Below, in pieces: positions 19,320-24,485 of a stretch of 24,485 bases of DNA (its first letter is position 1; every line of letters begins with the position of its first letter). Position numbers and translations under genes: made by a program. The stretch is from Bdellovibrionia bacterium (lineage in GTDB: Bacteria; Bdellovibrionota; UBA1018): NCBI GenBank assembly GCA_049424145.1, contig JBMSSC010000030.1, positions 1-24,485 on the forward strand, read 5' to 3'. Under the pieces are notes generated by a model. That model was not told where the DNA came from, did no database searches, and saw nothing but the letters and a program-made list of their open reading frames with translations.

Positions 19320-20012
19320 ATGGATTTAAGAAGTCAGGTTTCTTGTTTTTTACTCTTCTTTTTTGCTTTTCAAAATACCTCTGTTTTAGCCAATGACGGT
19401 CGCGTTGGAGACATTCGGTACTCCATTCTCTCTGAGGAACAATTTCAAGAGCTCCATGGAAAAGACTGGGAGCTCTTGCGTGGGCAGGAAGTTCCCTTCG
19501 ATTCAGCATTGAAAAACTTTTGGAGGGATTCCCATCTTCCTGATGCACGAGGAGTCTTCTTAAGGGGGTCCAATCATGGACGTCCTCGAAAAGAAGGCAA
19601 TCCAGAGGGGCACTTGCCTATTGGCCAATACCAGAGCGACACATTTAAAAAACACGATCACGGAGGAGGCAATCACCATCATCAAAGTTTCCTCGAGTTG
19701 ACCGCTTCAAGAAATTCTGATGGAAGGCAAATGAATACGGCTGCCTATTTTCCACCTAGACATCAACCCATTCAGACCAATAATTCAGGAGCAATCATTA
19801 AGGCTGAGGGAGATGCAGAAACTCGCCCCAGGAACATCACCGTCAATGTCTTCATTAAAATTAAGGAGACTCAGGTTCCTTCAAATCTGTCTAAAACAGA
19901 TCAGAAACTCGAGTGGACTCCCGAGCAGATTGCAACACTTATGAATACTCCAGAGTTCCAAAATAGCTTATCAGACGCACTTCAGAATCTACGCAAAGGC
20001 AAAAGAGAGTGA
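19320..20012 (+). CDS. Signal-peptide protein with phage tail-collar / tail-fibre-tip-like domain
   Basis: Signal peptide ..TSVLA|ND; collar-type GDIRYS..W.LLRG..LPDARGVFLRG; IGQYQSD.FKKHDH and NHHH (HxH metal motifs of fibre tips); ETRPRNITVNVFIKIK closing motif; extra helical C-terminal ~48 aa. Confidence 0.78.
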   Translation: MDLRSQVSCFLLFFFAFQNTSVLANDGRVGDIRYSILSEEQFQELHGKDWELLRGQEVPFDSALKNFWRDSHLPDARGVFLRGSNHGRPRKEGNPEGHLPIGQYQSDTFKKHDHGGGNHHHQSFLELTASRNSDGRQMNTAAYFPPRHQPIQTNNSGAIIKAEGDAETRPRNITVNVFIKIKETQVPSNLSKTDQKLEWTPEQIATLMNTPEFQNSLSDALQNLRKGKRE

Positions 20013-20021
20013 GAGGACTTT

Positions 20022-23000: not shown

Positions 23001-24485
23001 TTTGCCAGAACGATCGGACGATTTGAAGCAGGCACAACCATCGCAGAGATGCTTGAAAGCCTAGACGAAGGCACTCACATTGGAGATGTTTTAAGGAATA
23101 TCTTATCGCAGAAGGAATCAGTCATCCAAGCGATCGACGAAGCAGCCGCAAGGTACCGGACTCAACTTGAGACAAAGCCCCCTCATGAGCGCCTTAAAGA
23201 TCAACTCGACTTGAATCATACGCTTCAAAGTAAAACAATCGCAATTGCTACTCGAGATGATCTCGCGGTGAATGCCGATCAAAAAGGCAATTCGGTAGCA
23301 CTTGTTTCGCTTCGGGGTAAGGTGAAGATTAAGTCCAACAAGACCCGTAAAAAAACGAAAACTGGATTTCAGGACATCTTAGAGCGGCGAAAGCTGGATT
23401 ATGGAAACGGAGACGTCACGATTAAAGCGGGAGGGGTAGTTGAAACCTCAGCTGTAGACGTGAGGGCGGGATCGATGAATGTTGAAGGTCAAGCCATTCT
23501 CGATACAGCTTTAATGCTGGAGTCCGCCTCTGAATCTAAATCCGGTCCAACTCAAGTCTCCTTGAAGAAATCCAAAGCCGCCGTCTCTCAGATGAAGGTC
23601 AAAGGCAAGCTTAGGATGAAGGCGGGCAATCATCTCATTTTTCAAGGTACAAAAGCCAAGGCGGGATCCATAGATCTTGAGGCTGGGAAAGATATTACAG
23701 TCCTAGGGGTCCAAAATCACTCCGAGTCCAGCGTAAAAACTGAAAAGAAAACCGGTTGGTTCCTCTGGGCAGGCACAGAAAAAGAGACTCAAACCTCCGT
23801 AAAGAAGGGGTTTCAAGGAGCATCGTTTGAGGTAGGAGGAAATGACACACAGGGAGATGAAGTCATTCGGTTTAAGGCTGGAAACAATGTAACCATTCAA
23901 GCCCCAAAGATTAAGGCTCAGCGCACGCACGTTCAGGCAAAAAAATTCAAAATAACTCAGGGGAAGAACGCAGAGGCATCCTCCTCGAGCAAGGGTCATG
24001 AAAATGCTTGGTGGATCCAACAAAAGCTTAAAAAGGAAGAACACCAGACTTTCACTCCTATGGACCTGAGCGGAGAAATGCACCTTGAAGTCTCAAAACT
24101 TGAGATCGAGCAAGTCAAAGGCCAAGTTTTAAATTTTTTGGATCAGCTCAAGTATGACCCTAAGAAGGTCAAAGTGATCGAAACGCTCTTAGAAGAGTTT
24201 CACCATGAAGATGAGACGTCGATTTCAGCTCCGGGTCCAGCACTGATCGTTGCAGTGACGATTGCCTCCTCGGTTGCAACTGCCGGTGTGGGAGGTGCAA
24301 TTGTTGGGAGTTCTGGTACGGCTTTAGCAGCGGCTGCAAGTGCCGCCATATCCTCCGTTACCTCTCAGATTGCTACAACCCTGACCCTCGGTATTTTATC
24401 TCAGCAGAGTCCAGGTGAGATTTTAGGAAAAGTACTAAGCGCTGATACGCTAAAGGGTGCGGCAACCGCTGCTATCAGTGCCGGA
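20022..24485 (+). CDS. CdiA-like filamentous-haemagglutinin-repeat / DUF637 polymorphic toxin precursor, 3'-truncated by the window edge (>=1488 codons)
   Basis: Translated by hand: open from ATG 20022 (SD GAGGA 20013-20017) to 24485 with no stop. Signal peptide ..VSPAFA|QE; FHA-1-type repeats (FENQGKV, IRNSGEI, FKNSGSL, LENQQGTL, LNNDQGRI, FKNTSGVV); L.RNA...FLFYQ...GVQILKPMLVIP, resembling CdiA IVWLV..G.VLVPQVYL; FHA-2-type repeats (KAGNHLIFQGT, LEAGKDITV, KKTGWF); DUF637-like PGPALIVAVTIA...AAISSVTSQIA...LGKVLSADTLKG. Confidence 0.85.
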   Translation, partial: MISCHRPKSNSWIQGFIFFKFLVLVSPAFAQEAPPEIEIRHQQKETLQQWKIPCSGAGKGSEKSIKKLQAMGIKIHWDSSCTEVVVQARADHKMDQAKAQRQKWFIHSNRSVFLEGGLLAPVSVRAPLAEVDSHWMSPELHLAPETLPSHSKSKTPKSLLSRLVVTQGAELKTSHLGLKDSDFENQGKVESSKNLKVALEGGTIRNSGEIFVRGVFGVEKVGKKSISFHQFGSIRAQKIELGDLLFPIDQFDNASGGFLKAKRILGEFQQFKNSGSLYSTESLRLLGVHLENQQGTLFSDQDLLVDFIDLNNDQGRIQGSKQTTLRIGELFKNTSGVVSSDGPIELNFTPNSSSQSLGRLVGSELLLTLRHRLPVELQGGELLGKESISIFSDVRVSLPGVQFQTPLLNLSAPDFALDPLTQCGTTVVHCDPKRNFCLKSPLSSEGEIRFLESDFCRYRPNQQEKEAQDSSAVVSVNAVALEPQLTISHQLKRLGETVKDLEVHFGRNRGYASQYSLFIDSQVSSAQGVYFMVPRSSIFIGLDDSPSAAGVYADSLRTFTNHFLVRQGNVSASDAFIAAPGGITIGVLENDPNQFVQAGDQKFPLLRRGNAFLSTARECYIKGPLSCSGTLDVRGNLILDSEKKQYGYSSDIHVKGNLILKGEGDLSLIRHLGQIQHGQTIPLQSNRYSEEGSFVVDGDMISVNPKTIQLYASKLFVDQSDSKVDFKLVEKSGKEQIQFPEEKSDFKSVLGMRKPGFLRLTGPQTENIITSDEIFLLEDEGQFTFVVKNPYYLPLQKPLVDLGIQDLTSPKLYRTPDLKTTESGSSRFIYAVRESAFFSPEQSDAFIESFQNDIVIYDAQEELFKLPEGQVVFSLSPELLLSQVQKAAQDLFKRNFLSSNQPIDRKYLVRLHRNASEYFKSKGFSFEKAGDQVKVPLKVFNDFLKEQESENSYTKPFLFYQVAKDQGVQILKPMLVIPRKLQEKIRSEREGNIFARTIGRFEAGTTIAEMLESLDEGTHIGDVLRNILSQKESVIQAIDEAAARYRTQLETKPPHERLKDQLDLNHTLQSKTIAIATRDDLAVNADQKGNSVALVSLRGKVKIKSNKTRKKTKTGFQDILERRKLDYGNGDVTIKAGGVVETSAVDVRAGSMNVEGQAILDTALMLESASESKSGPTQVSLKKSKAAVSQMKVKGKLRMKAGNHLIFQGTKAKAGSIDLEAGKDITVLGVQNHSESSVKTEKKTGWFLWAGTEKETQTSVKKGFQGASFEVGGNDTQGDEVIRFKAGNNVTIQAPKIKAQRTHVQAKKFKITQGKNAEASSSSKGHENAWWIQQKLKKEEHQTFTPMDLSGEMHLEVSKLEIEQVKGQVLNFLDQLKYDPKKVKVIETLLEEFHHEDETSISAPGPALIVAVTIASSVATAGVGGAIVGSSGTALAAAASAAISSVTSQIATTLTLGILSQQSPGEILGKVLSADTLKGAATAAISAG

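What the first reader, a model, noticed from the sequence alone, without database searches (positions are those of the whole stretch)
19320..24485. Tail-collar protein + TPS-less CdiA-like toxin operon: candidate non-canonical contact-dependent toxin delivery system
Seen: two co-oriented genes 9 nt apart with an SD between them, both with Sec-type signal peptides. The first is a phage collar/fibre-tip-like protein with HxH motifs. The second has the CdiA order FHA-1, central region, FHA-2, DUF637-like. Established: canonical CdiA needs an N-terminal TPS domain (NPNL/NPNG motifs) and a CdiB/TpsB barrel, usually encoded just upstream. Here no NPNL/NPNG motif occurs in the N-terminal region, and the collar gene sits where cdiB is expected. 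Inference: the toxin leaves by a different route, and a trimeric phage-derived fibre-tip protein acts as its adhesin, adaptor or tether, conceptually like Neisseria MafA/MafB. The toxic C-terminus and immunity gene should lie just right of the window.
Basis: partly seen in the sequence, partly recalled or inferred. Interest (0 to 1): 0.85.

Follow-up and report, generated by a model that had tools for sequence, protein, structure and literature searches.

The report
Phage-fibre-guided bacterial toxin lacking its exporter
A group of uncultured bacteria carries a contact-killing-type toxin that has lost its usual export partner and is instead paired with a secreted phage tail-tip protein whose end segment is swappable, which suggests a new way of aiming toxins at rival cells.

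Summary
The gene pair is real and recurrent. ORF A is a secreted T4 gp12-like fibre-tip (collar) protein. ORF B is a CdiA-like polymorphic toxin cut off by the contig end. Two complete paralogous pairs in the same genome end in different toxin tips, each followed by a small putative immunity gene. The collar gene lies directly upstream in 10 of 10 close-family loci compared, and collar and toxin trees largely agree. None of the 8 toxin-bearing genomes has a TpsB/CdiB over the cut-off, with working positive controls. Two corrections: the N-terminus lacks the TPS sequence signature but is predicted to keep a TPS-like fold; and TPS-signature-less DUF637 toxins are a wide family (one member is from Ca. 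Odyssella), while the collar also leads unrelated toxin operons, so the collar is not the exporter. New here: the collar's distal tip is an exchangeable cassette (a near-identical strain has 98% base, 21% tip identity), as expected of a receptor-binding module. Best reading: a CdiB-independent CdiA-like antibacterial system aimed by a separately encoded fibre tip. The export route and any collar-toxin contact are inferred, not shown.

The parts
18190..18573 (+).
   Evidence: Homologs found 6 times in 116 genomes of the order; 5 of 6 lie within a few kb of a toxin or collar gene, 1 does not. The profile was built from those same 5, so only the scarcity of unlinked copies is informative.
19320..20012 (+). 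ORF A: secreted phage tail collar / T4 gp12 tip-like protein (230 aa): signal peptide, collar base, HxH tip, return strand, added C-terminal helices
   Evidence: PHROGs E 6e-14 and 1.4e-13; PDB gp12 sequence match weak, E 0.02; model pLDDT 71.8; Foldseek top hit 1ocy; ESM Atlas Collar cluster score 0.91; HxH in 41 of 43 aligned homologs.
19610..19805 (+). Exchangeable segment encoding the distal fibre tip
   Evidence: A contig of run X2 skips these 196 nt and carries 214 other letters, with 6 differences in the 400 nt that follow. Protein P0003, probably the same record, is 98% identical in the base, 100% in the C-tail and 21% in the tip.
20013..20021 (+). 9-nt spacer with GAGGA ribosome-binding site
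   Evidence: Sequence.
20022..24485 (+). ORF B: CdiA-like polymorphic toxin precursor, truncated by the contig end (about 420-440 residues missing by comparison with 1907- and 1928-aa paralogs)
   Evidence: 50% and 40% identical to the two complete paralogs.
20130..21113 (+). N-terminal beta-helix with TPS-like fold but no TPS sequence signature (toxin residues ~37-364), running into FHA-1-like repeats
   Evidence: Model pLDDT 81.2, pTM 0.73; top 5 of 48,161 chains are TpsA proteins, EtpA Z 22.1 rmsd 3.0 over 261 residues, HMW1 Z 21.9 rmsd 2.7 over 259; no PF05860 hit; hhalign against 3 TPS sequences probability 0.1%.
21396..21539 (+). Linker plus helix protruding from the beta-helix (residues ~459-506); candidate docking site, inference only
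   Evidence: Model; the aligned stretch is 65-87 aa in 13 close-family rows and 36-45 aa in 7 more distant rows including L033 from a genome without a collar match.
22359..22991 (+). Tyr/Pro-enriched and helical region matching the segment that precedes FHA-2 in canonical TpsA proteins (YP-like)
   Evidence: hhalign E 1.4e-4, probability 52%, 85 columns, against 3 TPS-bearing proteins; Y+P 17% at residues 781-840.
23562..23993 (+). FHA-2 (Fil_haemagg_2) repeats
   Evidence: PF13332, 27.1 bits summed, cut-off 22.
24333..24485 (+). Start of the DUF637-like pre-toxin domain
   Evidence: PF04830 positions 1-48, sub-threshold; full-length sub-threshold matches in both paralogs; DUF637 over cut-off in 37 of 46 long relatives scanned.

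Best explanation
This is an antibacterial polymorphic toxin-immunity system built on the CdiA plan but working without CdiB. Shown: signal-peptide-bearing toxin with the order TPS-like fold, long beta-helix, YP-like region, FHA-2, DUF637-like, VENN-like motif, variable tip, then an immunity-sized gene; no TpsB in the carrier genomes; a co-inherited gp12-like fibre-tip gene whose distal tip is swapped between alleles. Inferred: both proteins cross the inner membrane by Sec; the collar protein trimerises around metal at its HxH motifs as T4 gp12 does (recalled), binds a surface receptor of the rival cell with its variable tip, and is held to the toxin filament or the producer's surface by its added C-terminal helix, so it acts as a separately encoded receptor-binding domain; FHA-2 and the pre-toxin region then deliver the tip as in CDI. 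The outer-membrane exit is open: a housekeeping Omp85 barrel (BamA or TamA; about 0.35) or the type II secretion system (about 0.3) are the likeliest routes.
For: Paralogs nearly identical up to a junction, then unrelated tips and different small downstream genes; the C18 tip is shared with Rhs and haemagglutinin-repeat proteins; family members carry Ntox21, EndoU or PT-HINT, with orphan tip-immunity modules downstream. Collar directly upstream in 10 of 10 loci, gap -1 to 71 nt; Mantel rho 0.73 and shared clades, with the three G000 paralogs not grouping together in either tree. ShlB/TpsB over cut-off in 1 of 75 family genomes, and in none of the 8 with a toxin match; controls G092 and G107 score 1e-61 to 1e-65. 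Only BamA-like and TamA-like Omp85 genes in G000. No phage sheath in 5 of 5 and no T6SS sheath in 5 of 5 genomes tested. Tip exchange; base and tip identity correlate only weakly over 861 pairs (rho 0.23); tip columns 0.30 conserved against 0.64-0.76 for the base.
Against: The toxin family does not need the collar everywhere: G021 (97% complete) and G024 have toxin matches and no collar match, and the 3533-aa relative L032 has no collar in the 2.3 kb upstream. The same collar subfamily also precedes unrelated genes, so it may be a general surface adhesin. The C127 paralog's collar lacks the tip and both HxH motifs. gspD is split in the G000 assembly. DUF637 and PT-VENN are below threshold in this clade. 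Two relatives' toxin genes are interrupted (L024, L025). All genomes are incomplete assemblies, and kin share neighbours, so tree congruence shows linkage, not contact.
Confidence: 0.55

Rival explanations
1. The toxin is a working CdiB-independent polymorphic toxin, but the collar is an independent secreted adhesin that shares the operon and regulation without touching the toxin; it brings cells together and nothing more.
For: The collar leads at least three unrelated gene sets; toxin relatives occur without it; the C-terminal helix region is poorly conserved in sequence (0.32); signal-peptide-bearing phage-fibre adhesins are known in Bdellovibrio (PMC10769870, passages).
Against: Invariant first position directly before the toxin in 10 of 10 loci, overlapping it in L066, and congruent trees; a longer helical insert in collar-linked toxins.
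Confidence: 0.25
2. It is ordinary two-partner secretion: the TPS-like N-terminus is recognised by a very divergent or unassembled TpsB elsewhere in the genome.
For: The N-terminal fold matches TPS domains end to end and the YP-like region, which acts at CdiB in CDI (PMC9424206, passages), is kept; assemblies are incomplete; G005 and G009 hold a third ~600-aa Omp85 gene.
Against: No TpsB over cut-off in 8 of 8 carriers, one of them in 5 contigs; a profile of two control TpsBs finds nothing in G000; the third Omp85 sits beside a TamB-like gene, far from the toxins, is not similar to the control TpsBs, and was not found in G000 or G021; NPNG, called crucial for secretion (PMC5422565, passages), is absent.
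Confidence: 0.1
3. Collar and toxin are delivered by a contractile injection system or phage tail, the collar being a real tail-fibre tip.
For: Homology of ORF A to T4 gp12 and other tail fibres.
Against: No sheath genes of either type in the genomes tested, with controls ringing; hydrophobic N-terminal signal stretches on both proteins; no toxin relative in viral contigs and no tblastn match of the collar in 50,697 phage records.
Confidence: 0.03
4. The loci are decaying remnants of CDI islands that lost cdiB; release, if any, is by lysis or vesicles.
For: Interrupted toxin genes in L024 and L025, a remnant on C152, a tipless collar on C127, transposases nearby.
Against: Intact ~1900-aa reading frames in several genera at 30-55% identity with conserved gene order, intact immunity genes and live tip exchange.
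Confidence: 0.07

Closest known systems
CDI / CdiA-CdiB-CdiI (type Vb secretion)
   Same: Domain order (beta-helix stalk, YP-like, FHA-2, pre-toxin, VENN-like motif, variable tip), downstream immunity gene, orphan tip-immunity modules (CdiA plan from PMC9424206, passages).
   Different: No CdiB in locus or genome, no TPS sequence signature or NPNG motif, a fibre-tip gene in the upstream position, and a shorter stalk than the CdiA filaments I recall.
DUF637 haemagglutinin-like toxins of Holosporales and Rickettsiales (e.g. WP_010304305.1, Ca. Odyssella thessalonicensis)
   Same: Homologous over most of the C-terminal half and part of the stalk (P0068, E 2e-117); mostly without a TPS hit (45 of 46 long relatives). 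Large haemagglutinin-like toxins in genomes lacking cdiB are noted for Rickettsiales (PMC9111745, PMC11077975; passages).
   Different: Different N-termini; their gene neighbours could not be read here, so a collar partner is neither shown nor excluded; the passages read do not describe a fibre-tip partner or a TPS-like fold.
MafA/MafB/MafI of Neisseria
   Same: Small conserved secreted gene directly upstream of a signal-peptide-bearing polymorphic toxin with immunity gene (PMC3482391, passages).
   Different: MafA is a lipoprotein forming outer-membrane oligomers required for MafB export (PMC3482391 passages; PMC7738311 abstract); ORF A has no lipobox, a phage fibre fold and a variable tip; MafB has no FHA stalk (recalled).
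T4 gp12 short tail fibre tip; collar-bearing PilV adhesins; Bdellovibrio MAT fibres
   Same: Collar plus HxH tip fold; collar domains on PilV-type minor pilins; secreted phage-fibre adhesins with varied tips in the same phylum (PMC10769870, passages).
   Different: ORF A is a bare tip without shaft, pilin or S74 domain, has an added C-terminal helix and is tied to toxin genes.

Membership tests
CDI (CdiA/CdiB/CdiI) | Cognate TpsB/CdiB Omp85 transporter | tested here: not met
   None over cut-off in 8 of 8 toxin-bearing genomes, controls positive; genomes 80-97% complete.
CDI (CdiA/CdiB/CdiI) | N-terminal TPS domain by sequence (PF05860, NPNG/NPNL) | tested here: not met
   (control 2e-55).
CDI (CdiA/CdiB/CdiI) | N-terminal TPS-type fold | tested here: inconclusive
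   Top 5 structural matches are TpsA proteins aligned from the N-terminus, Z 17-22 against 16.7 or less for other beta-helices; a predicted model, and beta-helices resemble one another.
CDI (CdiA/CdiB/CdiI) | FHA-2 repeats | tested here: met
   Over cut-off when summed in the window copy; below it in the two paralogs.
CDI (CdiA/CdiB/CdiI) | Pre-toxin domain (DUF637 or PT-VENN) with VENN-type motif | tested here: inconclusive
   Sub-threshold DUF637 at the expected place; no PT-VENN in G000, 19.3 of 20.3 bits in L024; VENN-like ends in paralogs; over cut-off in most relatives.
CDI (CdiA/CdiB/CdiI) | YP secretion-arrest region and own receptor-binding domain | tested here: inconclusive
   YP-like match at probability 52%; no reference receptor-binding domain was available to test.
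Polymorphic toxin system (general) | Conserved body with variable C-terminal toxin and adjacent immunity gene | tested here: met
   Met in paralogs and relatives; the window copy itself is truncated.
Polymorphic toxin system (general) | Toxicity and neutralisation by the downstream gene | not testable with these tools
   Needs expression tests.
MafA/MafB | MafA-type outer-membrane lipoprotein upstream and MafB-N domain | tested here: not met
   No Maf family in Pfam or NCBIfam scans of ORF A or B; ORF A has a gp12 fold and no lipobox.
Phage tail collar / gp12 fibre tip | Collar base, HxH tip and return strand | tested here: met
   Pfam PF07484 itself not hit.
Phage tail collar / gp12 fibre tip | Metal-bound homotrimer | not tested
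   Only the monomer was modelled.
eCIS / T6SS | Contractile sheath genes in the genome | tested here: not met
   PF04984 0 of 5, PF05943 0 of 5, controls ring.

The most novel reading that the evidence does not exclude
The secreted gp12-like protein is a plug-in aiming module: a phage tail tip domesticated as a separately encoded, cassette-exchanged receptor-binding subunit that docks on CdiA-like filaments exported without any TpsB, and that has been recruited in the same way by at least two further unrelated toxin or effector operon types across several phyla. That would be a non-contractile, fibre-guided class of toxin delivery in which target range and warhead are shuffled independently.
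Probability: 0.33. Interest if true: 0.87.

Novelty: new variant of a known kind. Interest (0 to 1): 0.7.

Why it matters
CDI theory makes CdiB central: it recognises the TPS domain, exports CdiA and holds it at the YP region until a receptor is met. Here the whole CdiA plan persists in genomes without CdiB, so either another machine does that job or the arrest works differently; the wide DUF637 family makes this a general question. A receptor-binding part on a separate gene with exchangeable tips would be a new way for bacteria to change target range, and two natural alleles differing only in the tip make it directly testable.

Tried and rejected
Complex prediction of toxin residues 31-800 with one collar chain: no answer, score 0.01 against a mark of 0.32, controls not folded; neither support nor evidence against, and the trimer was not tried. 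No RNA holder listed. The missing 3' end could not be recovered: no overlapping contig, no third copy of the tail, and the listed X1 piece ends 6 letters past the window. PDB sequence searches with the toxin profile, the C18 tip and its immunity gene gave nothing useful. No plasmid match for the toxin body or the C18 immunity gene; the C127 tip matched 2 unannotated plasmid places. ESM Atlas hits for the toxin N-terminus scored under 0.9. The first TPS search had no positive control and was repeated with one. The family tree cannot order events: deep nodes are unsupported and it is midpoint-rooted, with 71 of 72 rows kept. Structure searches barely tested the model beyond residue ~430. Earlier findings of this scan: nothing. 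Names for the toxin tips of the two paralogs (RNase-like) are recalled only; Pfam and NCBIfam did not name them.
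Full report
Setting. The window is the whole contig C30 of genome G000 (2.69 Mb, 193 contigs, 95% complete). The closest collar-bearing public records are titled Oligoflexia, Bacteriovoracaceae or Bdellovibrionales bacterium, so the lineage is Bdellovibrionota-like; this is inferred from relatives.

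The observation. ORF A (19320-20012, 230 aa) and ORF B (20022 to the contig end, 1488 aa) are co-oriented and 9 nt apart with GAGGA between them. Pfam names neither. ORF A matches phage tail collar fibres in PHROGs, and its model matches the T4 gp12 receptor-binding domain best. In 43 aligned homologs, taken from 52 found, the base and return strand are conserved (0.64, 0.76), the tip is not (0.30), and 41 of 43 have HxH. A C-terminal helix pair (residues 201-229) is confidently predicted and lies beyond the gp12 match.

ORF B is a polymorphic toxin. G000 holds two complete paralogous pairs, on C18 and C127. Their 1928- and 1907-aa proteins are nearly identical through the pre-toxin region and then switch to unrelated tips, each followed by a different 90-130-aa gene. 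The C18 tip recurs on Rhs and haemagglutinin-repeat proteins in 3 plasmid records. Relatives end in Ntox21, EndoU or a HINT-linked tip, some with orphan tip-immunity modules behind. FHA-2 reaches its cut-off in the window copy; DUF637 is sub-threshold but hits only these three loci; a region matching the pre-FHA-2 segment of canonical TpsA proteins is kept. The window copy's own tip is unknown.

Recurrence. In 10 distinct loci where the close-family N-terminus and upstream DNA are present, the collar gene is directly upstream in all 10, gap -1 to 71 nt (loci; L067 repeats L066 and was left out). Collar and toxin distances correlate (Mantel rho 0.73) and share clades; the three G000 copies do not group together, so the pair moves as a unit. 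Related loci are not independent, so this shows linkage only. The toxin was found in 8 of 116 genomes of the order, all in one family, and the collar profile in 15 of 116. Against strict dependence: G021 and G024 have toxin matches and no collar match, and L032 has no collar upstream.

No CdiB. ShlB/TpsB passes its cut-off in 1 of 75 family genomes, which has no toxin match, and in none of the 8 carriers; two genomes of the phylum give 1e-61 to 1e-65, one beside a true TPS protein. G000 has two Omp85 genes, BamA-like and TamA-like with a TamB-like neighbour (these labels are from size, POTRA number and context). It has a type II secretion cluster, with gspD split in the assembly, and no contractile sheath.

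Is it TPS-less? By sequence yes. By fold probably not: the model of residues 31-1090 (pLDDT 81.2, 25-row alignment) is a capped beta-helix whose five best matches among 48,161 chains are EtpA, HMW1 and HxuA, aligned from the first strands, and the FHA secretion domain aligns end to end at Z 14.1. Among 67 long proteins, 2 have a canonical TPS and 2 a weak, motif-less trace of one, which fits decay of the domain, but the tree cannot order the events. Of 46 long relatives scanned, chosen from the 150 listed of 591 hits, 1 has TPS, 40 have a DUF637 match and 37 pass its cut-off; some may lack their true 5' end, which I did not check. One is from Ca. Odyssella. Loss of the signature is therefore family-wide and not explained by the collar.

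What the collar does. A contig from run X2 carries the same locus with window 19610-19805 replaced by 214 other letters. The protein P0003, probably from that record, is 98% identical in the base, 100% in the tail and 21% in the tip, and its tip type is shared with collars only 53-58% identical in the base; over 861 pairs base and tip identity correlate at 0.23. Such exchange is what receptor-binding tips of phage fibres do (recalled). The same collar subfamily heads a second operon type, several secreted genes ending in a polymorphic toxin and immunity gene (L028, L030, L048, and in part L097), and sits beside a family of 820-1400-aa proteins in Bacteroidota, Planctomycetota and Acidobacteriota records. 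This supports a general aiming or adhesion role rather than a toxin-specific export role. A small lipoprotein gene at 18190-18573 is loosely tied to these loci.

Mechanism. Shown: architecture, linkage, absence of TpsB within assembly limits, tip exchange. Inferred: Sec export of both proteins, collar trimer binding a rival's surface, tethering to the toxin filament or producer surface through the added helix, CDI-like delivery through FHA-2 and the pre-toxin region, and exit through BamA/TamA or type II secretion.

What is in print. PMC3482391 (passages) lists DUF637 as a type V pre-toxin domain, describes MafA and notes polymorphic toxins in Odyssella; 'collar' and 'Bdellovibrio' do not occur in the held text. 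PMC9111745 (passages and section 22) and PMC11077975 (passages) report haemagglutinin-like toxins in Rickettsiales, which lack cdiB. PMC5422565 and PMC9424206 (passages) define TPS and CDI. PMC7738311 (abstract and outline) covers MafA. PMC10769870 (passages) covers Bdellovibrio fibres. PMC12923769 was seen as a listing only. Eight searches showed no title or abstract describing a collar-linked CdiB-less toxin; the library omits most subscription journals, and I read no supplements, of which those of PMC3482391 and PMC9111745 could list such loci.

Verdict. A real, recurrent and apparently undescribed variant of the polymorphic toxin and CDI theme. It works like CDI but fails membership on CdiB and the TPS signature. 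Interest 0.7.

Noticed in passing
window 12146-16927 (-): A YopJ-family acetyltransferase gene (E 1.4e-5) and two long ankyrin-repeat genes in a low-GC stretch (37-46% against 49% for the genome) upstream of the locus; effector-like, hinting at a eukaryote-associated lifestyle.
   Followed up: no
window 17317-17392 and 18801-18878: An imperfect 79-nt repeat (84% identical) flanks the lipoprotein gene; related runs cover the flanks but mostly not the gene between them.
   Followed up: partly
window 3345-4826 (+): Phage-integrase-family tyrosine recombinase gene.
   Followed up: no
L028, L030, L048, L097: Second collar-led operon type: 2-5 mutually homologous secreted genes of no Pfam family, then a 730-805-aa polymorphic toxin (PT-TG in L030) and an immunity gene (CPCC, DUF7674). 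G000:C104 has related genes without a collar.
   Followed up: partly
L045, L049, L051, L053, L058, L059, L061: Collar genes, often in several copies, adjoin a family of 820-1400-aa proteins without Pfam names in Bacteroidota, Planctomycetota and Acidobacteriota records; possibly a third system.
   Followed up: partly
L029:7841-10278: Collar gene followed by a repeat protein (RCC1-like by recalled motif, untested) that itself ends in a collar domain.
   Followed up: no
L003:178-756: The C127 collar paralog lacks the whole tip and its HxH motifs while the toxin and immunity genes are intact.
   Followed up: partly
G000:C17:7948-10667: The gspD secretin gene of an otherwise complete type II secretion cluster is split into two ORFs in this assembly; error or pseudogene not resolved.
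   Followed up: no
G000:C15:13196-17617: A further polymorphic toxin locus with a repeated tip and duplicated immunity gene; its tip is shared with the L030 toxin.
   Followed up: no
L032: A toxin of at least 3533 aa with repeated stalk and FHA-2 modules, an unrelated N-terminus, no collar, and the small lipoprotein gene upstream.
   Followed up: partly
L034, L035, L036: G021 carries many orphan tip-immunity cassettes of this toxin family and no collar match.
   Followed up: partly
L090:9563-11383, L091:9380-11164: A third, ~600-aa Omp85 gene paired with a TamB-like gene in G005 and G009, not found in G000.
   Followed up: partly
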